A stretch of DNA of 64,000 nt from an uncultured Candidatus Saccharibacteria bacterium (GCA_964420015.1 CAYQPO010000001.1:87048-151047), one strand, 5' to 3'. Positions 8,241-23,731 are shown, numbered from the stretch's first letter. Notes: generated by a model not told the origin, from the sequence alone. Program-made: numbers and translations.

Positions 8241-8312
8241 TCCTCGGTAGCTCAATGGTAGAGCAGCTCCCTGTTAAGGAGTTGGTTGTAGGTTCGAGTC
8301 CTACCCGAGGAG
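8241..8312 (+). tRNA. tRNA-Asn (anticodon GTT)
   Basis: 72-nt cloverleaf. Acceptor TCCTCGG/CCGAGGA. D-stem GCTC/GAGC. Anticodon loop CTGTTAA. T-loop TTCGAGT. No encoded CCA. Confidence 0.85.
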
Positions 8313-10004
8313 CAGAGTTGGACGAACGGAGGCGAAAACCTCCGTTTCGTCTTTATCCGCCTCACATTTTTCAGGTTCGAACGCAGGGTTTTCTGACTTT
8401 GCCGTAAGTAGGCCGTTGATTATGGCGGAATATAAACTTGCGTGGCGAATACTAGCTTTTCTGTCCTTTATCGTTAGGTTCGAACCGGTCTCGATCAAGG
8501 CCTCTCTTTTGGCGACAAAGTCATCGCTCAAAAATACTTTTTCAATTCCGACGGCTAGACTAAAAGCTTTCTGCGCTTTGGCGATTCTGGTTAAGTCTAC
8601 CCGGTCGTAAGCGGCTAATTCCATCTCGAGTATGTCGATCTCTGCTTTGAACACTGTTCTCGCGTTTAGCATGTCCTGGTCCGTCAGCAATCCTCTCGCA
8701 CGCATCAGGGTGAGTTCCCGATCCTCACCGCGCTTCTTTTCGAGAGTCTTGGTCAATGATGCCTTTCTTTCAAATTCGTCCTTCCTTTCAGTAGTCACCA
8801 GACTGTCTAGATTTTTTATGCACCAATCAGCAAGACTTTGCGAGATGGAGAGATTTTTCTTGAAGTGATCAGCCAAATACTTATCAATGTGTTTTTCGTC
8901 CAGCGCACCTTCCTTGCAGTCAGGATGTTGTTTCTTTGTACAATGGTAGAACGCATAATGGAGGTACTTTGGATTCTCCATTCGATCAATACGTACACCG
9001 CACCCCGGACAGGTTGTCTTTCCAGGATAGGAGAATTTCTTTTTACATGTAGGACAGATTAACTGGTACTTGGGATCGGCGGTGATAGTGCCGCCACAAC
9101 CTCCACACTCTGAAACAATTTTGTATGGGAACAAATCTTTATTTAATGATGGTCGAGGACGTCCACGTTTACCGAGTATTTTTTGATTTTCCCAGTATTG
9201 TTCCTCTGTGATCATTCTCGGTATTTCTTTGTTGAGCTCGTGTCTTCTACCGTCTTTGGTGACAAAAAAGCCGGCATATACAGGGTTTCGAAGCAATGTG
9301 TCTATTACGTATGAAATAACCAGCTTCTTTCCACCCTGTTTTTTATGAAGCACCGTTCGGATGCCCATCTCATCATTCGCAGTCCTCATTATTTGTCGTG
9401 CAGAATACTTTCGACTGTTAAACATCAAGAGAAGTTGTTTTATGAGACCGTAACGGTTCTTATCGACTAACCAGCCGCGGTCTCCGGGTTCTTTCGACAT
9501 ATCGTTTAGAAAACCTATCGGAGCGACACCATTGGGATAACCTTTTTCTTGCTCACGTGTTCGTAAGCCTCGTTTTGTATCAACGCTCAAGTCCCGAAGG
9601 TACTGGTTAGCAATACCGAGTTCGACTGCCATGATGAGCACATTGTCGCTAGGATGATAGCTGCGGTCGAATGTTTGAATATGTTTAATTACACCTTGTT
9701 GAAGCATCCAGCTAACAGTGCCACCATCGATTGGATTGCGTGATAATCGATTGAGTTTCCATGAGATGATGCCTTCCGCCTCCCCTCGACTTATTCTCTC
9801 GACCATCTGCGTGAACAATGGTCTGCCAGGTGCCTTTGCGGATTTTGCTTCTTCAAACTTACCAACGACCTCTAGTCCGAGACGAGAAGCAAGCGCTTCT
9901 AGTTCGCGGATTTGATCAGGTAAAGACTGGACTTGTTTATCCTCAGTGTCCGTCGACTTTCGAACATACATGAAGTATTTTATTTTTTGATTTTCATTTT
10001 TCAT
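8301..10004 (-). CDS. large serine recombinase (resolvase/invertase-type integrase with Zn-ribbon and coiled-coil)
   Basis: N-terminal YVRKSTDTEDKQVQSLPDQ catalytic Ser region. ~568 aa with CxxC…CxxC ribbons (CGGCGGT, CPTCKKK, CPGCG). Start taken at MKNENQ. The 3' end overlaps tRNA-Asn. Confidence 0.8.
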   Translation of the reverse strand: MKNENQKIKYFMYVRKSTDTEDKQVQSLPDQIRELEALASRLGLEVVGKFEEAKSAKAPGRPLFTQMVERISRGEAEGIISWKLNRLSRNPIDGGTVSWMLQQGVIKHIQTFDRSYHPSDNVLIMAVELGIANQYLRDLSVDTKRGLRTREQEKGYPNGVAPIGFLNDMSKEPGDRGWLVDKNRYGLIKQLLLMFNSRKYSARQIMRTANDEMGIRTVLHKKQGGKKLVISYVIDTLLRNPVYAGFFVTKDGRRHELNKEIPRMITEEQYWENQKILGKRGRPRPSLNKDLFPYKIVSECGGCGGTITADPKYQLICPTCKKKFSYPGKTTCPGCGVRIDRMENPKYLHYAFYHCTKKQHPDCKEGALDEKHIDKYLADHFKKNLSISQSLADWCIKNLDSLVTTERKDEFERKASLTKTLEKKRGEDRELTLMRARGLLTDQDMLNARTVFKAEIDILEMELAAYDRVDLTRIAKAQKAFSLAVGIEKVFLSDDFVAKREALIETGSNLTIKDRKASIRHASLYSAIINGLLTAKSENPAFEPEKCEADKDETEVFASVRPTLLLG

Positions 10005-10451
10005 AAAACAAAAGTGGAGCAACAACGTAGTTCTTAATCGCCAGACCAAGAATGTTGTTGCCCCGCTTTTATCCTCAAAGCCAGAGTTTGAGCGTCTTGG
10101 TCTGGCACTATCACTATGGTCCACACATACACGAAAGCAACTGCTGATACTTGGCCCGTGTGTCAGACCCCCCCTTACCCCCACGGCTTTTTGCCTTAGA
10201 GGATCGCCGTGCCCTTATCCCGTTTTCTCTCGGAGGGCGACTTGGTTTCAGTTATCCTGCCGGTTAGCGCAAGCGCCCCCGGTGGTGAACATGACTGCGT
10301 TAGAAACCTCTCGCTACACCGCAATCAGTGGTTGGCTTTCTGCCGATACTCGGCCATCCCTGTACCGTGGGATCACGGAGCCAGCCCTATGCCTGTTTTG
10401 TTTTTACAAGCCCCGCATAGGGTCTCACCCCCAGGGCTTGAAGAGGCGCGA

Positions 10452-10661
10452 TCACGCGCTGGTCTTTGGGTCGAGGGATTTTCCGTCCCTCGCATCAACG
10501 AGTGAATATTCTTCACTCGCTCGTGCGAGAGCAGTAACTCCTAGTCTTGTAAGACGCAGCAAAGAAGCGCCGATTTTTTCGGCTTGTTCATCGGTCAGCG
10601 AGATACCCTTATCACGAAGAATGATCTCCTTTAGTTCTTTTTTGGCTTCCTGCGATAACAT
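10452..10661 (-). CDS. hypothetical small helical protein (island-borne)
   Basis: 69-aa ATG ORF, MLSQEAKKELKEIILRDKGISLTDEQAEKIG… No family assigned. Confidence 0.3.
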   Translation of the reverse strand: MLSQEAKKELKEIILRDKGISLTDEQAEKIGASLLRLTRLGVTALARASEEYSLVDARDGKSLDPKTSA

Positions 10662-11224
10662 GAGAAGCCCTCTCTTTTCCTGACGGGTTCCAGACGCTAC
10701 AAGTAGCGACCCGCCAAGAAAGCAAAGGGCTTCTCGGTGTGCGTCTGGAGTTACGCCATATCAAAAAGACCCTACACACGACGTGCGGGGTCTTTTTGGC
10801 AATGCCAAAAGAAGAGCCACCACGCGTACGTGACGGATCCTTCTTTTTTCATTGAGTTGCCTCAAAAGTTGCTCTAAGGAGGTTCGGTTGCGGCTTTGAT
10901 TTTTGCCGTTTACCGATGGTCTTTGATTGTAAAAGAGCGGGTAGATTCATTCTACCGGTCCGTAGAGGACCGTCAATCGGGGTGGTGTGGGTCCGCAGCA
11001 AAATGCTAAAATCTTATTGTGGGCCGGTAAGGCACACGAAAATTGAATAAAGCGCCTAAACCAGCGGCAACGCTGGCATGGCAAAAGAAGTCCGAACAGA
11101 CATAGAGAACCCGTCATGGGGGTGTCTGTTCGGCCATATCGGGAAACCGGTATGCCGGCGCAAGCCGGGACCCGTGGCGGGTTCTCTGTGTACCTCCCGG
11201 GGTTATTGGCTAAGCCAAACCTCT

Positions 11225-11623
11225 ATGAAGAATAAGAAAGCAGTCGTTGGACTCTGTATTTTTATACTGGTCTGTTTGGTGTTCGCCGTCTGGCTCTCAA
11301 TGCTTCCAACAAGCCCGAACAAACAAGCACTGCCCAGCAATTCGACAGTTGGGTTAGGCGAGCAAGGGTTCCTTGCTGCCTCCACCACGGTCGGCGTCTC
11401 AAAAGACGCCTACGACGCATACTTCAAAGCGACATCGGCAAACGACGCCGTCGGGTATTACCAGCTCAAGGAAAGTGGGCAGATTTTCGACCTCACTGTA
11501 AAAACAAAAGTGCTCGTGCTTAGCAGCTCATGGGGCTATGACGAGATCCGTTTTCTCGATGGCGTCCATGTCGGTCAGACCGCGTGGGTTGGCTATGAGA
11601 CCATTTCTCAAAATCATCTTTGA
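11225..11623 (+). CDS. hypothetical membrane-anchored protein
   Basis: MKNKKAVVGLCIFILVCLVFAVWL signal anchor, then a soluble domain. Confidence 0.45.
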   Translation: MKNKKAVVGLCIFILVCLVFAVWLSMLPTSPNKQALPSNSTVGLGEQGFLAASTTVGVSKDAYDAYFKATSANDAVGYYQLKESGQIFDLTVKTKVLVLSSSWGYDEIRFLDGVHVGQTAWVGYETISQNHL

Positions 11624-11668
11624 CCGGGATCTTTTTAGTGTGTAAGGTTATGTTAAGTTACTGTTTAT

Positions 11669-11857
11669 ATGGCTGACACGAGAAAAGCCGAAATTATTAC
11701 CCTAGCTGAAGCTTCTGCCATTTTGGGTTTGCACCCAAATACCCTTCGCAAATGGGATAACAATGGCTATTTGAAGGCTATACGGATTGGTACTCGCAAA
11801 GATCGTCGATATAGAAAGAGCGATATATTGAGATTGCTCGACCACAAGAATCACTAA
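11669..11857 (+). CDS. excisionase/AlpA-type HTH DNA-binding protein (candidate RDF or operon regulator)
   Basis: 62 aa. ITLAEASAILGLHPNTLRKW…IRIGTRKDRRYRKSDI is typical of the HTH_17 / Xis family. Sits 5 nt upstream of the giant ORF. Confidence 0.65.
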   Translation: MADTRKAEIITLAEASAILGLHPNTLRKWDNNGYLKAIRIGTRKDRRYRKSDILRLLDHKNH

Positions 11858-11861
11858 ACTC

Positions 11862-14800
11862 ATGACTACTACCCCATCAATTAAAAAAGAAAGTGGAGCC
11901 AGTGGTGTAAATGCTCCTGCAAATGGCCTTCTATTCTTCAAGGAGGTAGCGAAATACTTCATGGACTTTTTGGAGACAGACTTCCATAAGCGGAAGTTGC
12001 CTCGACGAACTATTAGATACCGTGATGGTGATAATCTCCTTGTCGGATTAAATCTTCAGAAGTATGAGACATTCAATAAATTAATATTAAAACTTATTGG
12101 AAAGAACTTTGAAAAAAACATCTTAGGTAAGCTCGAGAAAGGTGTTTACCAGACATTACTACCAAAAAATCTGCTTGACCTTATCAAACTCCAAATCGGA
12201 AAAATTGAAGGGTCGTTAATAAACCAAATTACAGAAGATATTGCTGAGGAAATAGAGAAGTCAGGTACATTGCATGCAGAAGAATACGATATTGCTCTTT
12301 CAAACTCTATTGAGGCAGCTGCAAATATTATTCGTGATGAATTGGTTGATCCGTTCATAAAAAGTATAGAGAAACCATTGCAGAATTTACACCTTGGCGA
12401 AGAGGACGACATTTTCCGAATCGAGGAAGAAATGACCTCTGTTCTAGTAAAACAACTGGAAAGTAAAATTTCAGAGATATTGAATCTCTTTATCGCCGGA
12501 GAAAACATAAATCTCCAAAAAGAATTGAAGAGCATACTAGTACTATCGGATGTGAAAGGCACGTTGGAAACCTTTTTCGAAGACTTGCATGTCGCTGACC
12601 TCTTTGCGGAAGTATTCGAGATGCAACGTAATATGAGCATTCTTGATAAGCAGGATTTTTATCTTTACTTCGGCGACATTTCTTTCAATAACATAAAATA
12701 CCCCATCTTTTACATACCAGTCAGCGTAACAAGACAGGGTGAAGCGTTGAATCTAGAGTTTGATACACAGATCTACATAAACAAAAGAGCATTGGAATAT
12801 ATCGTTCAGGAATATAACACTCTAAAAGGAACCGGGGGCAGTCTCAAGAATGTCACGGAACGAATTATTTATCTTGCCCAGCACACGGACGATTTACAGG
12901 ATATTCTTTCAGAAATACTCATTGAAATAGGAAACCTTTTCGAGATAAATAACCATGTAGACTTTTCCGTATCTGAGACTGTAACGGCAAAAGGTGCATC
13001 AGTGCGCATATCGAACTCTTGTTATCTGTGTCTCTTCGACAAATCTGACGAAGCGTTAGTAAACGACTACGAGGATATTTTACGTGAATTGAATGCTGAA
13101 GGTGGACTGCTTGCTGAGGCGTTTAATAAATTACTTGGGGATTTTTTACACAATAACCCAGAGCCAGTGAATCCGGAGGTTGAGAAGGAGTGGGATGACA
13201 CAGAGACTTCTGATCGCCTTGTCGCACAAAGCCCTATTCCCTTGAATGCCGAGCAGTTGCAGATTCTTTCGGCAATAAAGAAAGATAGATGTAAGTACAT
13301 GATCGTTGAAGGCCCACCCGGTACTGGTAAAAGCCATACCATTACAGCGATTATTTTCGACGCAATATTGAGAGACAAATCCATCCTTGTTCTCTCAGAT
13401 AAAAAAGAAGCCCTTGATGTCGTAGAGAAAAACATTACTCAAACAATAAATAAGGTCCGGTTTGATAAGAACTTTCAGAACCCTATTCTGCGTCTTGGTA
13501 AGACTGGCAATACTTACGCACAAATACTTGCAAAAGGTACTGTCGAGAGTATCAAAACTCACTATCGTGCTGTTAGAAAGGACTTCGAGACCATCGAAGA
13601 GAATATAGACAAATCCAGCAATACGCTCAAGGAGGATTTGGAGGCGGAAATTATTGCCTATGGAAGTATAAACGTTCAGGAAATTCAGGAGCTTGTACAG
13701 CTTGAAGATACACTCAAAAATGCAAAATTGGTCTTTGACATAGATGAACTACTTGAGGATGAAAATGCTGCACTTGAGCTCGCGGAGATGAGATCTTCTC
13801 TTGAAGAGTTTTCTGGACAATTCAGAGGAATACATACTGAGGGAATATTAAAATTGCTCGGTATAAAGCTTAAGAACATAAACACAATAGATGAATACGA
13901 GGGACTTCTGCGCTTCCTGACGGCAACTCAAGAAAGCGTAAAGAAGGTACAAGACACCTTTGGAACAAAAGTGGAGGCCGTACAGAAATTCACTTCATTC
14001 ACAAAGGAAAACCTTGGAGAGCTAAACAAATTTGTGAAAGAATACACAGATCTCAAAGCTTTCCTCGTCGGGTTCCTTTTTAAAAAAGAGAGGGTTGTCG
14101 AAGTCGATTTACGATTCATGCGTACCTTGAACAGTTCATATGCTACGCCGCATGAACATCTGGTCGCATTGAAAGATGCTGTTGCCATCTTTGAATTCAT
14201 TGCGGGTCAGGGGCGAGAAATAAACAAGCAGTTCGAATCCGATTTTGACTTTATTGCACTTGTTCATTACATCCTTCGAGAGGGCGAGACTGCCGAAAGC
14301 CTCAATGAAGTTCTTGCATCTGCTGAAGAGGTTAAATATTTCAAGGAGTTTTCTGAAAAGTACCCTAAAACAGTAGTGCGCTCAGAGCTTGATCTGCAAA
14401 ATCTTGTTTCTCTGAACGACTGTGCCATTCTCTCTCTTGGAGAGTCCGAGTTCGACAAACAGCTTCGCTATTTAAACCTTCGTCAAAAAATAACGAGAGA
14501 GTTCTCGAACATACCAGATTTAAACTACGCTTTAAAAAGGAAGAATATTGAAGATTTGGTGATCACTCAAGTTGCATATCTCATGGATGGAAGGCTCATT
14601 AATTTTTATGAGCATAGTAAAAGTGACGCAGAGACGCTAAGAAACGTAATTCGAAGTAAACAAAGATTCCCCCGAGACGAATTTCAAAAACTTAAAGAAG
14701 CCTTTCCCTGTATCTTGGCAGGCATTAGAGACTACGCTGAATATATTCCTCTTGAACAGGAAATGTTTGATTTGGTCATAATTGACGAAGCTTCACAGGT

Positions 14801-16445
14801 TAGTGTAGCGCAAGCATTTCCGGCCCTGTTGCGCGCAAAGAAGGTTCTTATACTAGGAGATAAAAAGCAGTTTAGCAATATAAAAGCGGCACAGGCTCGA
14901 TCAGACACGAACAGAGAGTACCTTAATACTCTTGAGCAATCCTTCAAACGAAATGTATCAAGTGAAACAACACAGCTTGTAAGACTCAGTAAATTTAATA
15001 TCAAAACTTCAATTCTCGAATTTTTTGAATTTATTAGCAATTACAACACTCAACTCGTTAAACACTTTCGTGGCTACAAAGAAATAATCTCCTATTCCAA
15101 TAAGTTCTTCTATCAAGGAAAACTGCAGGTAATGAAAATCCGAGGAAAGGCTATAGACGACGTAATAAAGTTTACGTACGTTGATGCGAAGGCAGAGGAC
15201 GAGGTGTATCCGAATGCAAATATAAAGGAAGTCGAAGCAATTATTGCTCAATTGCAATCCCTAAAAGAAGCTGGGACAGAAACTAGCGTAGGCATTATTA
15301 CTCCCCACACAAATCAGCAAAAGTTATTGGTGGAACAAATAAATAAAATGCCTGATAGAGACTACTATATCGATAATCTCCAGCTGAAAATAATGACATT
15401 CGATACGTGTCAGGGTGAAGAGAGGGACATTATTTTTTATTCGATGGTTGGCTCAAAGCATAGCGATAAACTTTGGGGTGTGTTTATAAAAGATCTCAAG
15501 GATGTCGACATTGAAGAGGACGGCCAGATCAAAGCACAGCGACTAAACGTAGGATTCAGTCGCGCCAAGGAATGCATGCATTTTATCTTGAGTAAACCTC
15601 TGGATGACTTTAATGGGTCTATTGGTGATGCCCTAAGACATTATTTCTATATATCAGAAGAAGCAAAGAAGGAACGGGGTGTCGCGGAAACAGATGCTCG
15701 ATCACAGAAAGAGCCTGAAGTACTTAATTGGTTTTACCAAACGAGCTTTTGGAAAAAGAACACTGATTCTATCGAGTTCATACCCCAATTTGAGATTGGT
15801 AAATACTTAAAACAGCTTAATCCATCGTACATTCATCCATACTACAAAGTTGACTTTCTTCTCATTTATAAAGACGCGAAGCAAAAAGAACATAAGATCA
15901 TTATTGAATATGACGGTTTTCAAGAGCATTTTGTAAACACTGACGCTGTAAATGCTTACAACTATCAGAATTATTATTCTGACGACGATGTATACCGACA
16001 AAAGGTACTTGAGAGTTATGGTTACAAATTCTTACGAATAAATCGATTCAACGTCGGGAGCAACCCTATAAAGACTTTGGATGAACGGATTGCGCGGTTG
16101 GTAAAAGACGAACCTAACGAAAACCCTTTGCTGAATAACATTCATATGACCGTTGAAGGCCTCCAGAATGGAGCTATGAAAGAATGCCCGAAATGTAAGG
16201 AGATAAGATCCTATAGTGATTTTAAAGACTCCTCGTTACTCACTGGCGTGGGCCGATTCTGCAAGACCTGCAAGAATAATCGAATTACAGTTCAAGCGGC
16301 CCTAGTGGCTGCACGTCCTGCCCCGGTTCTCACAGATACAAAATGTCCACGCTGTAGCTCCCCGATGATTTTGAGAAGTGGTCGAAGAGGAAAATTTTAT
16401 GGTTGTTCCCGCTTCCCATATTGTCGCGGTACAAGAAACCTATAA
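11862..16445 (+). CDS. giant DUF4011 - SF1B (Upf1/DNA2-like) helicase - DUF559/Vsr-like endonuclease - C-terminal Zn-ribbon protein (Hhe-like)
   Basis: DUF4011-like N-terminal segment (…DISFNNIKYPIFYIPVSV…). Walker A GPPGTGKSHT. Motif II LVIIDEASQV. Motif V/VI TFDTCQGEERD. Vsr/DUF559-like C-terminal block (…IIIEYDGFQEH…GYKFLRINRFN). Ribbons CPKC…CKTC and topoisomerase-type CPRC…GCSRFPYC. Confidence 0.75.
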   Translation: MTTTPSIKKESGASGVNAPANGLLFFKEVAKYFMDFLETDFHKRKLPRRTIRYRDGDNLLVGLNLQKYETFNKLILKLIGKNFEKNILGKLEKGVYQTLLPKNLLDLIKLQIGKIEGSLINQITEDIAEEIEKSGTLHAEEYDIALSNSIEAAANIIRDELVDPFIKSIEKPLQNLHLGEEDDIFRIEEEMTSVLVKQLESKISEILNLFIAGENINLQKELKSILVLSDVKGTLETFFEDLHVADLFAEVFEMQRNMSILDKQDFYLYFGDISFNNIKYPIFYIPVSVTRQGEALNLEFDTQIYINKRALEYIVQEYNTLKGTGGSLKNVTERIIYLAQHTDDLQDILSEILIEIGNLFEINNHVDFSVSETVTAKGASVRISNSCYLCLFDKSDEALVNDYEDILRELNAEGGLLAEAFNKLLGDFLHNNPEPVNPEVEKEWDDTETSDRLVAQSPIPLNAEQLQILSAIKKDRCKYMIVEGPPGTGKSHTITAIIFDAILRDKSILVLSDKKEALDVVEKNITQTINKVRFDKNFQNPILRLGKTGNTYAQILAKGTVESIKTHYRAVRKDFETIEENIDKSSNTLKEDLEAEIIAYGSINVQEIQELVQLEDTLKNAKLVFDIDELLEDENAALELAEMRSSLEEFSGQFRGIHTEGILKLLGIKLKNINTIDEYEGLLRFLTATQESVKKVQDTFGTKVEAVQKFTSFTKENLGELNKFVKEYTDLKAFLVGFLFKKERVVEVDLRFMRTLNSSYATPHEHLVALKDAVAIFEFIAGQGREINKQFESDFDFIALVHYILREGETAESLNEVLASAEEVKYFKEFSEKYPKTVVRSELDLQNLVSLNDCAILSLGESEFDKQLRYLNLRQKITREFSNIPDLNYALKRKNIEDLVITQVAYLMDGRLINFYEHSKSDAETLRNVIRSKQRFPRDEFQKLKEAFPCILAGIRDYAEYIPLEQEMFDLVIIDEASQVSVAQAFPALLRAKKVLILGDKKQFSNIKAAQARSDTNREYLNTLEQSFKRNVSSETTQLVRLSKFNIKTSILEFFEFISNYNTQLVKHFRGYKEIISYSNKFFYQGKLQVMKIRGKAIDDVIKFTYVDAKAEDEVYPNANIKEVEAIIAQLQSLKEAGTETSVGIITPHTNQQKLLVEQINKMPDRDYYIDNLQLKIMTFDTCQGEERDIIFYSMVGSKHSDKLWGVFIKDLKDVDIEEDGQIKAQRLNVGFSRAKECMHFILSKPLDDFNGSIGDALRHYFYISEEAKKERGVAETDARSQKEPEVLNWFYQTSFWKKNTDSIEFIPQFEIGKYLKQLNPSYIHPYYKVDFLLIYKDAKQKEHKIIIEYDGFQEHFVNTDAVNAYNYQNYYSDDDVYRQKVLESYGYKFLRINRFNVGSNPIKTLDERIARLVKDEPNENPLLNNIHMTVEGLQNGAMKECPKCKEIRSYSDFKDSSLLTGVGRFCKTCKNNRITVQAALVAARPAPVLTDTKCPRCSSPMILRSGRRGKFYGCSRFPYCRGTRNL

Positions 16446-18001
16446 TGAAATATCTAATATCAAAAACTACATTTCTTTCTTTTCTTGAATGCTACAGAGA
16501 CGTATGGCTCCGTATTCACCGTCCCGAACAGGTGGGAAAGCTTCAGATCTCCGATTTTGAGCTTCACATTCTTGAGCAAGGTAATGAGGTAGAGGCTGAA
16601 GCTCGAAAACTGTTTCCTGACGGCGTCTATATTACTTCAACAGAAGACGACGCAGTAAATGACACTGTTTGTTTGATGCGAGAAAAGACAGCAACCATTT
16701 TTCAAGCCACATTTCTTGTAGATGGCTTCATTGCTAAGAACGATATGCTTGTTTATGACAAGGTGGGTGATAAGTGGGATCTCTACGAAGTGAAGGGAAC
16801 AAACTCTTTAAAAGAAGAAGGTGCCGGCTCTAGAGACCATATTGATGACCTTGCCTTTCAATTGAGTGTATTGAGGCGGTCAAATGCAAATGTGGGTCGT
16901 TGTTTCATTATTCATCTCAACAAAGAATATGTACGTGCGGGTGATATTGATCTCAAAGCTCTGTTTGTTGTTGATGATGTTACGGATAAAATAGAAGCAC
17001 GTTTGCCTGAGATAGAAGAGAAAATGAAAGTGGCTAAAGAATATTTAACTTCAGAGAAGGAACCGCCGCGAGGTTGTGAGTGTGTTTATAAGGCACGAAA
17101 GAAACACTGTACTAGCTTCCAACTCTCAAACCCAGAGATACCCGAATATTCTGTACACGACTTATCTCGTGTAAGTCAGAAAAAACTCGACCTATTTATC
17201 GAGCGAGGCATTTTTGATCTGAACGACATACCAGATGATTTTGAGCTCACTGATAATCAAAAAAATCAGGTGATGGCGCATAAGCGACAAAAATCAATAA
17301 TTAACATTGAAAATATAAAGAAGGAACTTAATGAACTCACTTTTCCATTCTATTTTTTTGACTATGAAGCCTTTGGCCCAGCGATACCTGCTTTTAACGG
17401 ATACGGTCCTTACAAGCACATACCGTTTCAATTTTCTATTCATATTCTGCGAAGCCCCACGACCCCTTTAGAGCACGTGGAGTTTTTACACGATAGTCTC
17501 TCTGACCCATCGGAAAAAGTAGTTGAGATATTAAAAAAACACATTCCGCCCGGAGGAACGATAATTGCGTGGTACAAACATTTTGAAAAAATGGTCTGCA
17601 AGGAAATAGGAATCCGGTTACCTCAACATGCTGCGTATCTTGAAGAGTTCAACAGCAGAATTTATGATCTGATGGACATATTCCATGACCAACACTACGT
17701 ACATCCTAGTTTTAAAGGAAAGAGCTCAATCAAGAAAGTACTCCCGACCTTAGCTGCTGAATTGCGTTACGACATGCTTGCTATCCAAGAAGGAGGACAG
17801 GCCGCAGATGCTTGGTGGAAGATGGTATCGCCGAACACATCAGTGGATGAAAAGAAACAAATTGCCCATGATCTGAAGGTCTATTGTGGTCTTGATACAT
17901 ATGCCATGTACGCAATTTGGCATCACTTGCAAGAAACAATAACGGATGGAGTGGTACCGACACGTCTTCTTTATCCACCGATTCATTCAGTCAAGAAATA
18001 A
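16445..18001 (+). CDS. DUF2779-like protein with N-terminal Cas4/RecB-type PD-(D/E)XK nuclease motifs
   Basis: N-terminus MKYLISKTTFLSFLECYRDVWL resembles the DUF2779 start. D…D…EVK nuclease triad (…KNDMLVYD…LYEVKG). The ATG overlaps the stop of the giant ORF (TAATG). Confidence 0.6.
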   Translation: MKYLISKTTFLSFLECYRDVWLRIHRPEQVGKLQISDFELHILEQGNEVEAEARKLFPDGVYITSTEDDAVNDTVCLMREKTATIFQATFLVDGFIAKNDMLVYDKVGDKWDLYEVKGTNSLKEEGAGSRDHIDDLAFQLSVLRRSNANVGRCFIIHLNKEYVRAGDIDLKALFVVDDVTDKIEARLPEIEEKMKVAKEYLTSEKEPPRGCECVYKARKKHCTSFQLSNPEIPEYSVHDLSRVSQKKLDLFIERGIFDLNDIPDDFELTDNQKNQVMAHKRQKSIINIENIKKELNELTFPFYFFDYEAFGPAIPAFNGYGPYKHIPFQFSIHILRSPTTPLEHVEFLHDSLSDPSEKVVEILKKHIPPGGTIIAWYKHFEKMVCKEIGIRLPQHAAYLEEFNSRIYDLMDIFHDQHYVHPSFKGKSSIKKVLPTLAAELRYDMLAIQEGGQAADAWWKMVSPNTSVDEKKQIAHDLKVYCGLDTYAMYAIWHHLQETITDGVVPTRLLYPPIHSVKK

Positions 18002-18169
18002 AACATAGTTGCAATATCTTTACGAAGAGCTGGAATGGTTCGATGTCTCTCCCGAGCGAAAAGAATGCTAACGAGCTCCGGCGGATCATTAAAGAAACAA
18101 CTGGCGACAATGTGTCGCTACAGGAGGTCTACAAAATTTGGCACTATCTCCAGAAAATATTTCTCTGCA

Positions 18170-18823
18170 CTAGCTTGTGGAGAGGCAGGAAGCCACCTGT
18201 CCGGCCGGAACAGCCACCATTGTTCGAGACACTGCATTCAGATCACAAACTACGGAAGGCCGGAGAGACTGGCGCATAACAGGTGTTTCGTCCTCGCGTT
18301 CCTCCAGGTGGCGTTCACTCCACCTCGGATCGTTTGGATTGTTGTGTCTGTGGAGCGCGAGCGCGTCGATAATTTCCCGAAGGTGTCCTTGGCATTTTGC
18401 GCGCTCCGGTTCAGGCAGCACGTCGACTAAAAATCGCACATCGTCCACGCTGACCGTGCTCATGATTTTGTGCTGGACCATCTGCTTTTCGCTAAAGTCA
18501 TGGAAGTACTGCAGCCAGAGCTTTTGGCTGAATGGATTGCCTTTGACCGCCGAGCGGTAGATGCCCTCAATCACAGCGCTCGTTTTGCCGAAGGCCCATT
18601 CCTTGCGCAGTGTGGTCACGCGCGCCTCGAAGTCAGGGCGGCGCTTCCATCGCGCCGGCGTGTTGGCGCCTATCTTGTAAAAGTCGACGAACTGTTCCTG
18701 CGTTTCGATGCCAAGTCTCATGCGTTCGCTCGGCGGCATAGCGCTCCAGAGGATAAATTCTGTGTACACGTCGACACGGTTAGGTTCTCTATTTTCACCA
18801 TTTGTCACCATTTGTTTGTTCAT
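18170..18823 (-). CDS. hypothetical protein (possibly phage/island-related)
   Basis: 217-aa ORF with no recognised motif. Confidence 0.35.
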   Translation of the reverse strand: MNKQMVTNGENREPNRVDVYTEFILWSAMPPSERMRLGIETQEQFVDFYKIGANTPARWKRRPDFEARVTTLRKEWAFGKTSAVIEGIYRSAVKGNPFSQKLWLQYFHDFSEKQMVQHKIMSTVSVDDVRFLVDVLPEPERAKCQGHLREIIDALALHRHNNPNDPRWSERHLEEREDETPVMRQSLRPSVVCDLNAVSRTMVAVPAGQVASCLSTS

Positions 18824-19133
18824 GGTTTCGTTGCAAACATGTTGCTACTGTTCGCTTTTTCTTAATTGTACGCCTCCTGCATCAAACGGTGAATGGTGAT
18901 TTTGCCCTTACTGTGGGTCCACGCGCGAGAAGGGGTCGAAGGGCGGTGAATCCTCAACTTGTCATGGGCCATCGCACACCGGGGCGAACAGGGGCTAATT
19001 ATGGGGTAAGGGCGGTTTCTACCTTGTCCCGGTATTGGATAGAATTGCGTAAAGCATGTGTTCGGACATTGTCCAACATGTGGAGCAAACGATTTTAGGT
19101 CTTAAAACAAGGAGATTTTGGGGAGGAGTTTTA

Positions 19134-19547: not shown

Positions 19548-20912
19548 CTAGATCCGATATCCCATCTCGCCATGCACGGCCACGTCTAACCCTTCGGCCT
19601 CCTCCTTGGCCGAGACGCGCAATGGGAAGCGCACCCATCCGAGTACTTTGAGGATCACCCAAGTGACAACGAACGAGTAAACACCCACCGCGGCAACGGC
19701 AATAAACTGCACCCACAACTGATGCGGATTGCCAAAGAGGAGTCCATTTTGCCCGGCTGAGTTGATCGCCTGCTCGGCAAACACCCCCGTGAGCAAAGCG
19801 CCGGTGAGCCCGCCTATCCCGTGGCCCGCCCACACATCGAGCGTGTCGTCTATTTTTATTGCTCTGCCGCGAATATAAACGGCAGCATACGTTACTGCCC
19901 CACCCAAGATACCAATCGCAATAGAGGCCACCGGCCCCACAAAGCCCGACGCCGGCGTAATGGCCACAAGGCCACACACCGCGCCTATGGCCGCTGCCAT
20001 GGCCGAGGGGCGGCGATTCTCCGCCCACGAGAGCGCGACCCAAGTGAGCGCTGCCGCTGCAGCTGCGGTATTGGTGACCACAAAGGCGCTTGCGGCGAGC
20101 GCGCCCGAAGCGAGCGCCGACCCCGCGTTGAACCCAAACCACCCAAACCACAGTAGAGCGGCCCCCAAGATCACAAAGGGAACATTGTTGGCAGTAGAGC
20201 CAGGATGACGCGTCTCGAGCCGCTTACCCACCAAAAGCGCCGCCGCAAGCGCCGAGAAGCCAGCGGTCATATGCACCACGGTGCCACCGGCGAAGTCTAG
20301 TGCCCCGAGTGAGTGGAGCCAGCCCATAGGGCTCCATACCCAGTGCGCGACGGGGTCGTACACCAGTGTGGCCCATAGGAGCGTAAATATGACCAGCGTC
20401 TTAAACTTAATGCGCTCAACAAAAGCGCCGATGATGAGCGCCGGTGTAATGATCGCGAACATCGCCTGGAAGATCATAAAGACGAGCGCAGGGATCGTAC
20501 TCGCGTAGTTGGTATCAGGTGCAAACCCCACGCCGCGCAACCCGAAGTGGGCCAGATCGCCCAAAAGACCGTGCCCCAAATCGGGGCCAAACGCGAGCGT
20601 ATATCCCACCACCACCCACTGCACCGAAATGAGCGCCAATATGATCATCGACTGCTTAATCACCGAGACGACATTTTTGCTACTGACCATCCCGCCGTAG
20701 AAAAACCCAACCGCAGGCGTCATGATCATGACCAAGGCCGAGGAGGCGAGCATCCACGCGGTATCCCCGCTCGAGAGCGCGCTTCCTGCGTCGCCCGCCG
20801 AAGCGCCGCCAAACTGTGTCGCTGCCCATCCGACCAGGACCCCGAGCCCCAACCACCCGACCAAGTGCCACACAAAACCCGTCTCGCGTGCCGACCTTAG
20901 AAGTTGTTCCAT
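19548..20912 (-). CDS. amt: ammonium transporter
   Basis: ~11 TM. Amt signature regions (…FFYGGMV…DFAGGTVVHM…). Confidence 0.85.
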   Translation of the reverse strand: MEQLLRSARETGFVWHLVGWLGLGVLVGWAATQFGGASAGDAGSALSSGDTAWMLASSALVMIMTPAVGFFYGGMVSSKNVVSVIKQSMIILALISVQWVVVGYTLAFGPDLGHGLLGDLAHFGLRGVGFAPDTNYASTIPALVFMIFQAMFAIITPALIIGAFVERIKFKTLVIFTLLWATLVYDPVAHWVWSPMGWLHSLGALDFAGGTVVHMTAGFSALAAALLVGKRLETRHPGSTANNVPFVILGAALLWFGWFGFNAGSALASGALAASAFVVTNTAAAAAALTWVALSWAENRRPSAMAAAIGAVCGLVAITPASGFVGPVASIAIGILGGAVTYAAVYIRGRAIKIDDTLDVWAGHGIGGLTGALLTGVFAEQAINSAGQNGLLFGNPHQLWVQFIAVAAVGVYSFVVTWVILKVLGWVRFPLRVSAKEEAEGLDVAVHGEMGYRI

Positions 20913-22324
20913 AGAAGTTGATTAGTCACCTCATGGTGATAAATTATCTCGGTACGCTTTATGGTCGTACCGAGGGCTTTCGGCGAGCGGTCCGCCGCGG
21001 CCTGCTTATAATGCACGAACTTTTCCTTAGACTCTTCGCCTAAGATTTTCGTGACAAATTTGCTCGCCTTACACAGCGCGATCGCGTCGTAGATATTGTC
21101 GGGCAAAAAGCGCAGGCGCTCGCGCTTGTCCTTGTCTTTATGCAACTTCTCGCCCTCGAGCCCTGTCTTGATCATCGTGTAGAGGAGGAGGTAGGGGTTG
21201 GCATCGGGTGCAACGCTACGCAACTCAATGCGCGCGGTGCGTTCGTTGCCCACGGGGATGCGTATCATCGAACCCCGATCGACGGCCGAAACTTTTATTT
21301 GATTAGGTGCCTCGAAGTGTGGGTCGAGCCGGCGATAGGCGTTGACTGAGGAGTTGATGATGAGGCAGATCTCGGGCGCATGGTTGAGGAGTCGAAGGAT
21401 GAAATCCCACGCAATTTTAGAAAGTCCGTCTTGCCCTTTGGGGTCATAAAATATATTCTTGCCATTTTTACTGAGTGAGAAGTTGGTGTGCATGCCTGAG
21501 CCATTGATGCCCATGAACGGCTTAGGGAGAAAGGTCGCGGTCATCCCCATGTTGCGCGCTACTTGCCGGCAAATGAGCTTGTAGAGTTGAATGTTGTCTG
21601 CGGCCCGTACCACCTCGGCGTAGCTAAAGTTCATCTCAAACTGGCTGGGGGCAACTTCGGGGTGGTCCTTTTCGTTTTTAAAGCCCATCGCGCGCTGAGC
21701 CTCGGCCGCAGCATCAATAAAAAGCCGCAGGCGATCCTGCGGGAGTGAGTGGTAGTATCCACCGGTTGTTATGAGCTTGAACCCCTCCTCTACCCTATAG
21801 TGTTGCTCGCTCGCTATGCCGTCGACCAAAAAACCCTCTATTTCGGGTGCAGCAAAAGCGGTCAAGCCCCCTTCGCGTTTAATCTTTTGCGTGAGTGCGC
21901 GCAGCTGACCGCGAAAGTCGCTGTAGTAGGGCGAGCGGTCACGGTTTAAGACCGAAGCGAAAAAGATCACCTTGCCCGGGCCAAAGATCTCCGAGGGCAT
22001 CCAGCGGATAGAGGAGAAATCGACCTCAAGCCGCAAATCGCTCTCGTGCTGCTGCGTAAAGCCGCGGATAGAACTCCCGTCGAAGGTAAGATTATTAAGC
22101 GAGTCGAGGAGGAACTTCTTGTCATAGTCGAGCATGTGCAGGCGCCCTTCTATGTCGGTAAAGCAGATGGTGACGGCCTTGATGCGTTTCTCTTTCTTGA
22201 GATAGGCAGTGTACTTTTTTTGCAATGCGGCGAAGGTGAGCTTTTCCGCATCCCCTTTTGCTTTGAGGTTGATCTCCTCTAACTTGTCGTACGGGATTTC
22301 GAGAAAATTCTTCAGTCCGGTCAT
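20897..22324 (-). CDS. glnA: glutamine synthetase
   Basis: GSGMHTNFS motif. 475 aa. Overlaps the downstream amt start by 16 nt. Confidence 0.85.
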   Translation of the reverse strand: MTGLKNFLEIPYDKLEEINLKAKGDAEKLTFAALQKKYTAYLKKEKRIKAVTICFTDIEGRLHMLDYDKKFLLDSLNNLTFDGSSIRGFTQQHESDLRLEVDFSSIRWMPSEIFGPGKVIFFASVLNRDRSPYYSDFRGQLRALTQKIKREGGLTAFAAPEIEGFLVDGIASEQHYRVEEGFKLITTGGYYHSLPQDRLRLFIDAAAEAQRAMGFKNEKDHPEVAPSQFEMNFSYAEVVRAADNIQLYKLICRQVARNMGMTATFLPKPFMGINGSGMHTNFSLSKNGKNIFYDPKGQDGLSKIAWDFILRLLNHAPEICLIINSSVNAYRRLDPHFEAPNQIKVSAVDRGSMIRIPVGNERTARIELRSVAPDANPYLLLYTMIKTGLEGEKLHKDKDKRERLRFLPDNIYDAIALCKASKFVTKILGEESKEKFVHYKQAAADRSPKALGTTIKRTEIIYHHEVTNQLLWNNF

Positions 22325-23605: not shown

Positions 23606-23731
23606 ATGCTAGCACTACTCGGGCTCCTCAGGTAGGACACGAAACCACAAGGGAGCTGCTCTACCCTATTTATGCAAGCTTCATGTTTGCTTCTGCTATA
23701 CTAAAAAGACTATTGGATAACTAACAATGCT

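What the first reader, a model, noticed from the sequence alone, without database searches (positions are those of the whole stretch)
8241..18056. AT-rich integrative island at tRNA-Asn driven by a large serine recombinase
tRNA-Asn(GTT) at 8241..8312 is immediately followed by a minus-strand large serine recombinase whose last ~4 codons overlap the tRNA 3' end. From there to ~18.0 kb the GC content falls from ~58-60% to ~38-45%. A degenerate copy of the tRNA 3' end (GGTTCGAtGTCtCtCCCGAG at 18036..18055, compared with GGTTCGAGTCCTACCCGAGG) sits right after the last island gene. Serine integrases need only short core identity, so a long direct repeat is not expected. The cargo is an HTH plus a helicase-nuclease module rather than phage structural genes, so this looks like a defence island, not a prophage.
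Basis: partly seen in the sequence, partly recalled or inferred. Interest (0 to 1): 0.7.

Follow-up and report, generated by a model that had tools for sequence, protein, structure and literature searches.

The report
Serine-recombinase island at tRNA-Asn, boundary revised
A roughly 10.7 kb mobile island sits at the end of a tRNA-Asn gene and is carried by a serine recombinase from a large, undescribed tRNA-linked family; it holds two structured RNAs and a probable anti-phage helicase, but the proposed right-hand attachment site is really the start of a conserved small gene.

Summary
The core observation holds. tRNA-Asn(GTT) lies at 8241-8313. An intact 567-aa large serine recombinase (LSR, 8301-10004, minus strand) has its stop codon 13 nt inside the tRNA 3' end. 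This layout is typical of the family: 41 of 80 relatives in species-representative genomes have a tRNA overlapping the LSR end, and 5 more have an intron-split tRNA-Asn. The closest LSR-free relative has 3.9 kb where the window has 21.9 kb.

Two points fail. Only 11.6-18.0 kb is strongly AT-rich. The "degenerate tRNA copy" at 18036-18055 is the ribosome-binding site and first codons of a conserved small ORF (18043-18279). That ORF and the convergent 217-aa gene (18170-18823, a fold like a prophage small-terminase-type protein) form a module found next to tRNA-overlapping LSRs elsewhere. The island therefore reaches at least about 18,998. No attR, empty site or excised form was found.

New findings:
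- LOOT RNA (RF03000, function unknown) is a recurrent island component, lying upstream of a membrane-anchored protein gene.
- A 325-nt covarying RNA with no Rfam match lies directly upstream of the LSR.
- An inverted tRNA-Asn pseudogene sits at 23620-23666.

Defence cargo is plausible but falls below the family cut-offs.

The parts
8241..8313 (+). tRNA-Asn(GTT), the target gene. Its last 13 nt are shared with the recombinase ORF.
   Evidence: ARAGORN and Rfam RF00005 at 72.7 bits. Identical to the tRNA-Asn of the LSR-free relative L082 except for one compensated acceptor pair, 4:69.
8301..10004 (-). Large serine recombinase, 567 aa, apparently intact.
   Evidence: Pfam Resolvase, Recombinase and zinc ribbon. 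The catalytic RKS motif and 8 conserved cysteines are invariant in a 28-sequence alignment. More than 1100 homologs, mostly Patescibacteria MAGs. The stop codon lies 13 nt inside the tRNA, as in most Asn and Gln relatives.
10005..10144 (-). LSR-proximal leader with two interleaved inverted repeats (CCAGACCAAGA/TCTTGGTCTGG and GCAACAAC/GTTGTTGC). Shared with L091.
   Evidence: Read from the sequence and from the alignment with L091. The pseudoknot reading is an inference.
10145..10469 (-). Structured RNA of about 325 nt directly upstream of the LSR and co-oriented with it. It matches no Rfam family.
   Evidence: nhmmer E 1e-54 to 1e-96 in L089, L091, L001, L096 and L098. 70 predicted pairs, 93.4% of cells paired. 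15 pairs have compensatory changes, against 6.6 +/- 1.7 in shuffles (0/500) and 1-7 in slid controls. G-U pairs and GNRA loops fit the LSR-sense strand. No Rfam match at E<=1.
10452..10661 (-). Small conserved ORF (69 aa) upstream of the leader RNA. Function unknown.
   Evidence: 50-52% identical ORFs at the same position in L089 and L091. No Pfam, PHROG or PADLOC hit.
11053..11168 (+). LOOT RNA (Rfam RF03000).
   Evidence: 80.1 bits against a gathering score of 46.4. My own covariance model finds LOOT on the cargo side of the LSR in 24 loci and on the host side in 2-3 (binomial p 5e-5).
11226..11623 (+). 132-aa protein with an N-terminal membrane anchor, 58 nt downstream of LOOT.
   Evidence: ORF and sequence. 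A TM-type hit, OppC_N. In most LOOT loci a co-oriented gene for an N-terminally hydrophobic protein starts 40-70 nt after LOOT.
11669..11857 (+). 62-aa HTH_17/MerR-type (excisionase-family) DNA-binding protein, 4 nt upstream of the helicase gene.
   Evidence: Pfam HTH_17 at 9.4e-11. PADLOC mad1 at 3.9e-10. NCBIfam 'excise' domain at 23.2 bits, below its 28.8 cut-off.
11862..16445 (+). 1527-aa SF1 helicase (AAA_11/AAA_12) with a Vsr/DUF559-type nuclease motif and C-terminal Top1-type zinc ribbons. Candidate defence protein.
   Evidence: Pfam. PADLOC PDC-S37 3e-47, MkoC 2e-44, Hhe 7e-26. NCBIfam ProA 153 bits and Hhe 124 bits, far below their cut-offs of 1500 and 2000. GC 39.6%.
16445..18001 (+). 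DUF2779 protein, 518 aa from the ATG used in the public gene calls.
   Evidence: Pfam DUF2779 at 2.2e-39. Gene call of 518 aa in L093 and L094. GC 40.8%.
18043..18279 (+). Conserved small ORF (78 aa, MSLPSEKNANELRRIIKETTG...).
   Evidence: DNA and peptide conservation with L101 and L099.
18170..18823 (-). 217-aa protein that is recurrently linked to LSRs, with an N-terminal helical domain like the prophage phBC6A51 protein.
   Evidence: Homologs lie about 1 kb upstream of tRNA-overlapping LSRs in L099 and L101, and directly upstream of LSRs of this family in L036 and L044. AF2 model with pLDDT 76.7; best PDB match 2ao9, probability 0.99, E 0.09, TMt 0.58-0.64.
18824..18998 (.). Conserved non-coding stretch upstream of the 217-aa gene. 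It marks the outermost point of homology with the compact element in L101.
   Evidence: nhmmer aligns window 18009-18998 with L101 7791-8856 at E 1e-103. The alignment shows a motif that is duplicated in L101.

Best explanation
The window carries an integrated mobile element of about 10.7 kb, from inside tRNA-Asn (about 8.29 kb) to about 19.0 kb.

Integration (inferred). The element entered by site-specific recombination catalysed by its own large serine recombinase. Its attP carries a replacement for the tRNA 3' end, and this replacement overlaps the recombinase stop codon. The tRNA therefore stays intact after integration.

Anatomy (shown). The element has two conserved ends.
- tRNA-proximal module: LSR, a structured 5' leader RNA, a 69-aa ORF, LOOT RNA and a membrane-anchored protein gene.
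- Distal module: a small HTH-like ORF and a 217-aa small-terminase-like DNA-binding protein.
- Between them sits an exchangeable, AT-rich cargo slot. Here it holds an excisionase-type HTH, a 1527-aa helicase-nuclease and a DUF2779 protein. This is most likely an anti-phage system.

Basis of each step.
- Shown: gene content, the tRNA overlap, its recurrence across the family, absence from the nearest relative, the RNA structures, and the linkage of both end modules to LSRs.
- Inferred: the recombination itself, the crossover point, the right-hand att site (expected between 18.99 and 19.14 kb), present-day mobility, the defence function, and the roles of the RNAs.
For: - LSR domains and invariant catalytic and zinc residues.
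- The stop codon lies inside the tRNA.
- The same geometry holds in 41 of 80 species-representative loci: Asn 23, His 7, Gln 4, Trp 3, Ser 2, Tyr 2. Five more have an intron-split tRNA-Asn.
- L089 and L091 have an LSR 60-63% identical at the same HPF-Fmt-Def-MreB-linked tRNA-Asn, but with different cargo.
- L082 (MreB 92.5% identical) has no LSR. It has 3.9 kb between tRNA-Asn and SWIB where the window has 21.9 kb.
- The proximal module is conserved at DNA level, E 1e-69 to 1e-75.
- LOOT lies on the cargo side in 24 loci.
- The distal module is homologous to L101 and L099 next to other tRNA-overlapping LSRs.
- Cargo hits anti-phage helicase models, and relatives carry defence-type cargo.
Against: - No attR, no displaced tRNA 3' end in direct orientation, no empty site within the species and no circular junction was found.
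- The 217-aa module is absent from the 10 kb upstream of the LSR in L089 and L091. Its membership of this particular element, rather than of an older neighbour, is therefore inferred.
- The whole 8.3-30 kb tract is variable relative to L082, so the outer limit is not fixed.
- All defence-family scores are far below the curated cut-offs.
- LSR relatives at the same locus in hosts whose MreB is only 72% identical could mean long vertical residence rather than current mobility.
Confidence: 0.7

Rival explanations
1. Tandem array, with the reader's boundary right for the live element. Element A runs from 8.29 to about 18.04 kb. The small ORF and 217-aa gene are the stump of an older element B whose recombinase was deleted. 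The GGTTCGA...CCCGAG string is then what is left of B's tRNA-like arm.
For: - The motif begins exactly at the T-loop GGTTCGA. tRNA repeats start at the same place in L061, and the fragment retained next to the LSR in L063 ends there too.
- It sits at the end of the AT-rich block.
- In L036 and L044 a homolog of the 217-aa protein lies directly upstream of an LSR. That is the order expected for a compact element B.
- The tail after GGTTCGA matches the tRNA better than 98.9% of random 18-mers.
Against: - The same bases are the RBS and codons 1-5 of an ORF whose peptide is conserved in L101 and L099. Those elements target tRNA-Val and their DNA lacks GGTTCGA.
- Whole-motif scores are within background.
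- There is no trace of a second LSR in the window.
- The L063 and L061 repeats may stem from unrelated insertions.
Confidence: 0.15
2. Resident, no longer mobile locus. The LSR with its leader RNA and LOOT is an old, vertically inherited fixture beside tRNA-Asn in this lineage. The AT-rich helicase block and other genes arrived separately at a general integration hotspot.
For: - The LSR, leader RNA and ORF69 sit at the same syntenic tRNA-Asn in the window, L089 and L091. LSR identity there is 60-63% and MreB identity 72%.
- There are no recognisable att repeats in more than 30 loci.
- GC of the proximal module (45-58%) is close to that of the host, unlike the cargo at 40%.
- The 8.3-30 kb tract is a mosaic. 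It holds a retron-type RT and an inverted tRNA pseudogene.
Against: - The nearest relative, L082, lacks the whole module.
- The family switches between six tRNA identities and occurs in a viral contig (L085) and on contig ends.
- The ORF is intact with all catalytic residues.
Confidence: 0.1
3. Larger or rearranged unit. The true unit is the 15.3 kb between the intact tRNA-Asn (8241-8313, +) and the inverted tRNA-Asn pseudogene (23620-23666, -). This could be a bigger island that later suffered an inversion, or a segment invertible by the LSR.
For: - The pseudogene scores 37-40 against a background of 27 or less.
- It retains D-arm, anticodon-stem, T-arm and acceptor parts.
- It lies just before the first gene that has a homolog near the L082 tRNA-Asn.
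Against: - Simple integration yields direct repeats, not inverted ones.
- The pseudogene keeps 5' parts of the tRNA, which a displaced 3' end would not.
- The intervening Amt, GlnA and secreted-protein genes have host-like GC of 52-60%.
- No comparable inverted copy was seen in relatives.
Confidence: 0.05

Closest known systems
Large serine integrases of temperate phages and islands (Bxb1, phiC31, A118/LI, TP901-1; SCCmec Ccr; XisF)
   Same: Same domain order: Resolvase catalytic domain, Recombinase domain, then a cysteine-rich zinc ribbon. The best NCBIfam neighbours are XisF and CcrA/B, all far below their cut-offs. The gene sits at one end of the element.
   Different: Known serine integrases mostly target protein-coding genes. 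Mageeney et al. [quoted passage not shown] They found only 14 of 297 such cases, which they described as needing proof. Here a whole clade has its ORF ending inside a tRNA. No att sites or recombination directionality factor (RDF) are defined. Identity to any phage-record LSR is 31% or less, over partial alignments.
tRNA-targeting genomic islands with tyrosine integrases (Islander/TIGER class; P4-like; tycheposons)
   Same: An integrase lies next to the tRNA 3' end, the tRNA is kept intact, and the cargo is variable and often defensive. The island is absent from a close relative. Tycheposons include a minority with large serine recombinases.
   Different: The enzyme family differs, so no long direct repeat is expected, and none was found. 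The integrase ORF physically overlaps the tRNA. The element also carries the LOOT RNA and a structured leader RNA.
LOOT RNA motif (Rfam RF03000; Weinberg et al. 2017 ZWD collection)
   Same: A full-length match at 80.1 bits with all helices.
   Different: The papers I could read treat it as a metagenomic RNA and give no function. Here it is placed in a defined context. It lies on the cargo side of tRNA-linked LSR elements, 40-70 nt upstream of genes for membrane-anchored proteins.
Hhe / ProA / Mokosh-type anti-phage helicase-nucleases
   Same: An SF1 (AAA_11/AAA_12) helicase core plus a Vsr/DUF559-like nuclease motif in one large protein. The helicase core matches Hhe, ProA, MkoA/C and PDC-S37 models.
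   Different: Only about 300 residues match, and scores of 124-153 bits fall far short of cut-offs of 1500-2000. The N-terminal 440 aa are unassigned. It has extra Top1-type zinc ribbons, and it is paired with a DUF2779 protein and an HTH_17 protein.
Phage satellites (PICI-like elements) with their own small terminase
   Same: A small integrative element with an integrase at one end and a small-terminase-like DNA-binding protein at the other, and no structural genes.
   Different: The fold match is weak (E 0.09) and covers only the N-terminal half. No primase or replication module and no capsid-remodelling genes were recognised. No helper phage is known.

Membership tests
Large serine recombinase (serine integrase) | N-terminal Resolvase catalytic domain with the nucleophilic serine | tested here: met
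   PF00239 at E 1.7e-16 over residues 11-153. Y13, R15 and S17 are invariant in 28 sequences.
Large serine recombinase (serine integrase) | Recombinase domain plus a zinc-ribbon domain C-terminal to the catalytic domain | tested here: met
   PF07508 at 21.9 bits, just above its 21.1 cut-off. Weak DZR_2 hit. Eight invariant cysteines: C300, C303, C317, C320, C332, C335, C355 and C363.
Large serine recombinase (serine integrase) | Defined attP/attB pair with a 2-bp crossover, and unidirectional integration | not testable with these tools
   No attP, attB or attR was recovered. This needs read mapping or biochemistry.
Integrative genomic island at a tRNA gene | Integrase gene adjacent to the tRNA 3' end | tested here: met
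   13-nt overlap, recurrent in 41 of 80 relatives.
Integrative genomic island at a tRNA gene | Flanking direct repeat, that is, the displaced tRNA 3' fragment at the far end | tested here: not met
   The only direct candidate (18036-18055) is an ORF start and scores within background. Serine integrases do not require such a repeat.
Integrative genomic island at a tRNA gene | Absent from related genomes (empty site) | tested here: inconclusive
   L082 (MreB 92.5% identical) lacks the LSR, the RNAs and the cargo at its tRNA-Asn, but its far flank is not collinear. All same-strain contigs are occupied.
Integrative genomic island at a tRNA gene | Deviant base composition | tested here: met
   The cargo at 11.6-18.0 kb is 39.6-42.3% GC against 52-55% in the flanks. 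The end modules are near host values.
LOOT RNA (RF03000) | Score above the Rfam gathering threshold over the full model | tested here: met
   80.1 bits against 46.4, model positions 1-121 of 121.
Hhe / ProA anti-phage proteins | Whole-protein score above the NCBIfam equivalog cut-off | tested here: not met
   ProA 153 bits against 1500, and Hhe 124 bits against 2000. Only the helicase C-terminal core aligns.
Prophage | Capsid, tail, portal and large terminase genes | tested here: not met
   No such Pfam or PHROG hits in 8.3-19.1 kb.
Phage satellite (PICI-like) | Small-terminase homolog plus integrase plus a replication module, mobilised by a helper phage | tested here: inconclusive
   Integrase is present. 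There is a TerS-like fold hint only: 2ao9 at probability 0.99 and E 0.09. No replication module was recognised. Helper dependence cannot be tested here.

The most novel reading that the evidence does not exclude
A large clade of serine integrases, mostly in Patescibacteria, has specialised on tRNA 3' ends, with the integrase ORF terminating inside the tRNA. The clade mobilises compact satellite-like elements whose conserved core includes two structured RNAs: LOOT and a new 325-nt leader. In the boldest version, the leader RNA is more than a passive 5' UTR. It would control or take part in recombination, for example by sensing the state of the tRNA or host to gate integrase synthesis. LOOT would control a membrane protein that excludes superinfecting phage.
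Probability: 0.12. Interest if true: 0.85.

Novelty: new variant of a known kind. Interest (0 to 1): 0.6.

Why it matters
tRNA genes are the classic target of tyrosine integrases. For serine integrases the literature I could read calls tRNA targeting unreported or unproven (PMC7192596). This window belongs to a family with more than 1100 members. In that family the serine integrase gene ends inside a tRNA (Asn, His, Gln, Trp, Ser or Tyr) in more than half of species-representative loci.

If the family is active, three things follow:
- It would be a source of serine integrases with fully conserved natural landing sites.
- It would explain part of the gene flux in the reduced genomes of Patescibacteria.
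- It would give LOOT, an orphan RNA family, its first genomic context, and add a new covarying RNA tied to a recombinase gene.

For the scan itself, there is a practical lesson. A short tRNA-like string at a GC break was a false att site, and comparison with related elements moved the boundary by about 1 kb.

Tried and rejected
- **attP forms.** I took L001, L055, L029, L031 and L012 for unintegrated attP forms with a crossover in the anticodon loop. Rejected: they are tRNA-Asn genes split by a group I intron. The 5' halves lie 250-600 nt further on, RF00028 hits L001, and the phenomenon is already described (PMC13011429).
- **Direct repeats of the tRNA.** I searched upstream of the LSR in 33-37 loci with three scoring schemes. 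Direct and inverted best scores had the same mean of about 20. Only L061 stood out.
- **11-nt anticodon-loop match at 22570-22580.** It lies inside a coding region, with no further homology.
- **Empty-site search.** Exact look-ups of flanking proteins returned only occupied contigs: L081 and L093-L095. The window's own LSR and helicase are not on record. The first genome-contig scan with the single protein found nothing.
- **Far-flank synteny.** Comparison among L082, L089 and L091 showed none.
- **A second, decayed LSR near the pseudo-tRNA.** None found.
- **More copies of the leader RNA.** One extra locus in metagenome contigs and none in viral contigs. Not present in the other 75 LSR loci.
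- **DNA-level constraint on the TTCGAACC that encodes FEP.** 10 of 46 loci have TTAGAACC, so the constraint is probably at protein level.
- **Phage records.** No LSR closer than 31% identity.
- **Function of the small genes.** Pfam, PHROGs and PADLOC gave nothing significant for ORF69, the small ORF or the 217-aa protein.

Full report
**1. What is in the sequence**

ARAGORN and Rfam place a single tRNA-Asn(GTT) at 8241-8313 on the + strand. On the minus strand an ORF runs from 10004 to 8301. From its likely start (MKNENQKIKYF...) it encodes 567 aa with Resolvase (E 1.7e-16), Recombinase (just above cut-off) and zinc-ribbon signatures. In a 28-sequence alignment the catalytic Y13/R15/S17 and eight cysteines are invariant, so the gene looks intact. 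Its TAG stop is the reverse complement of tRNA positions 61-63, and 13 nt are shared.

The GC statement is only partly right.
- The flanks are 52-55% GC.
- The recombinase is 44.8%.
- The next 1.6 kb is 46-60%.
- Only 11.6-18.0 kb is 39.6-42.3%.

**2. The recombinase family is tRNA-linked**

A protein search gave more than 1100 homologs at E<=1e-10. Most come from unnamed metagenomic contigs, and the named ones are mainly Patescibacteria. I fetched 80 loci from species-representative genomes.
- In 41 of them a tRNA on the opposite strand overlaps or abuts the recombinase end: Asn 23, His 7, Gln 4, Trp 3, Ser 2, Tyr 2.
- The stop codon usually lies 13 nt inside the tRNA for Asn and Gln, and 10-15 nt inside for His and Trp.
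- Five more loci (L001, L012, L029, L031, L055) have the tRNA-Asn 3' half at that place and the 5' half 250-600 nt further on, separated by a group I intron. This intron position is already published (PMC13011429).
- Several of the remaining loci are contigs cut within about 270 nt of the recombinase match.
- Others form a second class, mostly in non-Patescibacteria hosts, whose ORF continues past a '..DDVRTY..' motif.

Mageeney et al. [quoted passage not shown] They found 14 of 297 cases 'requiring experimental proof'. I found no paper describing this clade.

**3. Presence and absence in related hosts**

L082 is a JGI contig whose MreB is 92.5% and SWIB 92% identical to the window's.
- It has the same tRNA-Asn next to the DUF2378 gene. 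The tRNA differs by one compensated acceptor pair.
- It has no recombinase, no LOOT and no leader RNA.
- It has 3.9 kb between tRNA-Asn and SWIB, where the window has 21.9 kb.

L089 and L091 (MreB 72% identical) carry recombinases 63% and 60% identical. These sit at the same tRNA-Asn, beside HPF-Fmt-Def-MreB, but with different cargo: an unknown 1136-aa protein in one and an AAA_15 ATPase in the other. L097 and L098 (64%) carry an XhoI/Eco57I R-M system and a methylase + HATPase + helicase set.

Four contigs from the same strain (L081, L093-L095) all carry the island, so no true empty site was found.

**4. The proposed attR is not a tRNA remnant**

The motif at 18036-18055 scores 24 against the tRNA. 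The best chance scores in 37 relatives reach 25-27 on either strand. A longer alignment is matched by 17% of random windows.

Window 18009-18998 is homologous at DNA level to L101 7791-8856 (E 1e-103) and to L099 (E 2e-90). In the alignment the motif is the ribosome-binding site, the ATG at 18043 and the first codons of a small ORF. The peptides are:
- window: MSLPSEKNANELRRIIKETTGDNVSLQEVYKIWHYLQKIFLCTSLW...
- L101: MTVPSLKNAADLQRIIKETTG...
- L099: MTAPSLKNAVELQRVIKETTG...

L101 and L099 have no GGTTCGA there.

That ORF and the convergent 217-aa gene (18170-18823) form a pair.
- In L101 and L099 the pair lies about 1 kb upstream of another family of 566-aa serine recombinases. Those ORFs overlap tRNA-Val or tRNA-Glu.
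- N-terminal homologs of the 217-aa protein lie directly upstream of recombinases of the present family in L036 and L044.

The pair is therefore mobile-element DNA, and the island extends to at least about 18,998. The att site is expected between there and the tRNA-binding-protein gene (start 19134), but I could not identify it.

It is not excluded, and I give it 0.15. The motif does begin at the T-loop. The tRNA repeats of L061 start at that position, and the tRNA fragment retained beside the LSR in L063 ends there. Those cases may reflect other insertions.

**5. Crossover position**

No displaced tRNA 3' end in direct orientation exists in the window or in the 10-kb cargo flanks of more than 30 relatives. 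There are two possible reasons. Most elements may exceed the fetched flank. Alternatively, the crossover may lie so close to the tRNA 3' end that nothing recognisable is displaced. This remains open.

**6. Conserved core next to the recombinase**

Window 10005-10695 is conserved at DNA level in L091 (E 3e-75), L089 (4e-69) and L001 (7e-37). It contains a 69-aa ORF (10452-10661) and a non-coding block of about 325 nt (10145-10469). The block is also found in L096 and L098.

On six sequences the RNAalifold consensus has 70 pairs.
- 93.4% of cells are paired.
- 15 pairs show changes on both sides, against 6.6 +/- 1.7 in shuffles (0 of 500) and 1-7 when the partners are slid.
- By eye, one inner helix is fully rewritten in L098 (UUGCG/CGCAA to CACGU/ACGUG).
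- G-U pairs and GAAA loops fit the recombinase-sense strand.
- The single-sequence z-score is -2.3.
- Rfam 15 gives no match at E<=1.

Caveats: there are only six sequences, and the structure was derived from the same alignment. I read the block as a structured 5' leader of the recombinase mRNA. Its role is unknown.

**7. LOOT RNA**

Rfam finds LOOT (RF03000) at 11053-11168 with 80.1 bits against a gathering score of 46.4. I built a covariance model from six copies.
- It finds LOOT in 24 recombinase loci on the cargo side, 0.6-7 kb from the recombinase.
- It finds LOOT in 2-3 loci on the host side (binomial p 5e-5).
- One of the cargo-side loci is a viral contig (L085).
- It finds none in L082.
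- In most loci a co-oriented gene starts 40-70 nt downstream and encodes a protein with an N-terminal hydrophobic anchor. These proteins are otherwise diverse. In the window this gene is 11226-11623.

The papers I could read give LOOT no function. A leader or co-transcribed RNA for a membrane protein of the element is my inference.

**8. Cargo**

- The 62-aa HTH_17/MerR protein (11669-11857) belongs to the excisionase-type HTH family.
- The 1527-aa protein (11862-16445) has an SF1 helicase core, an MTES_1575/DUF559-type nuclease motif and Top1-type zinc ribbons.
- Its helicase core matches PDC-S37, MkoA/C and Hhe in PADLOC, and ProA and Hhe in NCBIfam. The NCBIfam scores are 124-153 bits against cut-offs of 1500-2000, so it is not a member of those families.
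- DUF2779 follows at 16445-18001.

Defence is the most likely function. The grounds are the resemblance and the defence-type cargo of sister elements, and it has not been shown.

**9. The 217-aa protein**

An AlphaFold model built on 22 sequences has a mean pLDDT of 76.7, confident for residues 20-170. Its best PDB neighbour is 2ao9, a protein of B. cereus prophage phBC6A51 (probability 0.99, E 0.09, TMt 0.58-0.64). From my own knowledge, 2ao9 is regarded as a small-terminase-type nonamer. This is a lead towards a satellite-like lifestyle, not a result.

**10. Other features of the tract**

An inverted tRNA-Asn pseudogene lies at 23620-23666 on the minus strand. It lacks the first 16 nt and the anticodon loop, and it scores 37-40 against a background of 27 or less. 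I have no tested explanation for it. The 8.3-30 kb tract also holds an Amt-GlnA pair and a retron-type RT fused to a DnaG zinc finger.

**Verdict**

The right boundary and the att argument are wrong. Mobility, the crossover point, the defence function and the roles of the RNAs remain inferences.

Noticed in passing
window 23620-23666 (minus strand): Inverted tRNA-Asn pseudogene (GGTAGAGCAGCTCCCTtgtGGTTtCGtGTCCTACCtGAGGAGC). It lacks the 5' 16 nt and the anticodon loop. It lies between a 386-aa secreted-protein gene and a 112-aa gene whose homolog sits 2.5 kb from the tRNA-Asn of L082. With the intact tRNA it brackets 15.3 kb in inverted orientation.
   Followed up: partly
window 27553-28896 (minus strand): 447-aa reverse transcriptase (RVT_1; NCBIfam retron St85-type at 104.6 bits, below its cut-off) fused to a DnaG-type CHC2 zinc finger. 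It is a likely defence-associated RT, sitting in the same variable tract.
   Followed up: no
L001 11744-12033; also L012, L029, L031, L055 just after the recombinase: tRNA-Asn genes split by a group I intron in the anticodon loop, and so missed by ARAGORN. The intron in L001 is about 600 nt against about 250 nt in L055; its content was not examined. This matches the published position 35/36 introns of Patescibacteria.
   Followed up: yes
L099 1809-3509 and 5120-6847; L101 9607-11307: A second, distant family of 566-575-aa serine recombinases (about 24-30% identity over the N-terminal part). Their ORFs read through almost the whole of a tRNA-Val or tRNA-Glu gene.
   Followed up: partly
window 8291, 8374, 8477 (+ strand): GGTTCGA occurs three times within 190 nt: in the tRNA T-loop and in the codons for the conserved FEP and GSNL motifs of the recombinase C-terminus. 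At FEP, 30 of 46 loci keep TTCGAACC and 10 have TTAGAACC.
   Followed up: partly
L061 1680-1880 and 2700-2900: Two units about 1 kb apart, 7.3 and 8.3 kb upstream of the recombinase. Each unit holds a near-perfect copy of the tRNA-Tyr 3' end. About 95 nt away it also holds an inverted copy interrupted by a hairpin, and it ends in a terminator.
   Followed up: partly
L063 11557-11640 and 17277-17351: The recombinase keeps only the tRNA-Asn 3' end up to the T-loop. The intact tRNA-Asn lies 5.7 kb away in the same orientation, as if a second element had inserted at the T-loop. No second recombinase of this family is present.
   Followed up: partly
L006, L010, L013, L019, L046, L047, L054, L056, L076, L083 (recombinase C-termini): A second class of family members, mostly in non-Patescibacteria hosts and one viral contig, has no adjacent tRNA. 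The ORF continues for 30-50 codons past a conserved '..DDVRTY..'. In L019, L056 and L083 this motif is encoded by an identical GTTCGAACC.
   Followed up: partly
window 19548-22324: An ammonium transporter and a glutamine synthetase lie in tandem on the minus strand at 52-60% GC. They sit inside the tract that is variable relative to L082. The host's relatives are labelled Patescibacteria.
   Followed up: no
L016 8478-8578 (minus strand): A SAM riboswitch (RF00162, 48.3 bits) lies within the cargo side of another LSR element, about 340 nt from its LOOT RNA.
   Followed up: no
L097 11575-11691: A 33.9-kb Logan contig ends inside the tRNA-Asn, just past the T-arm and 17 nt after the recombinase ORF. 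This would fit an assembly-graph branch at the integration junction.
   Followed up: no
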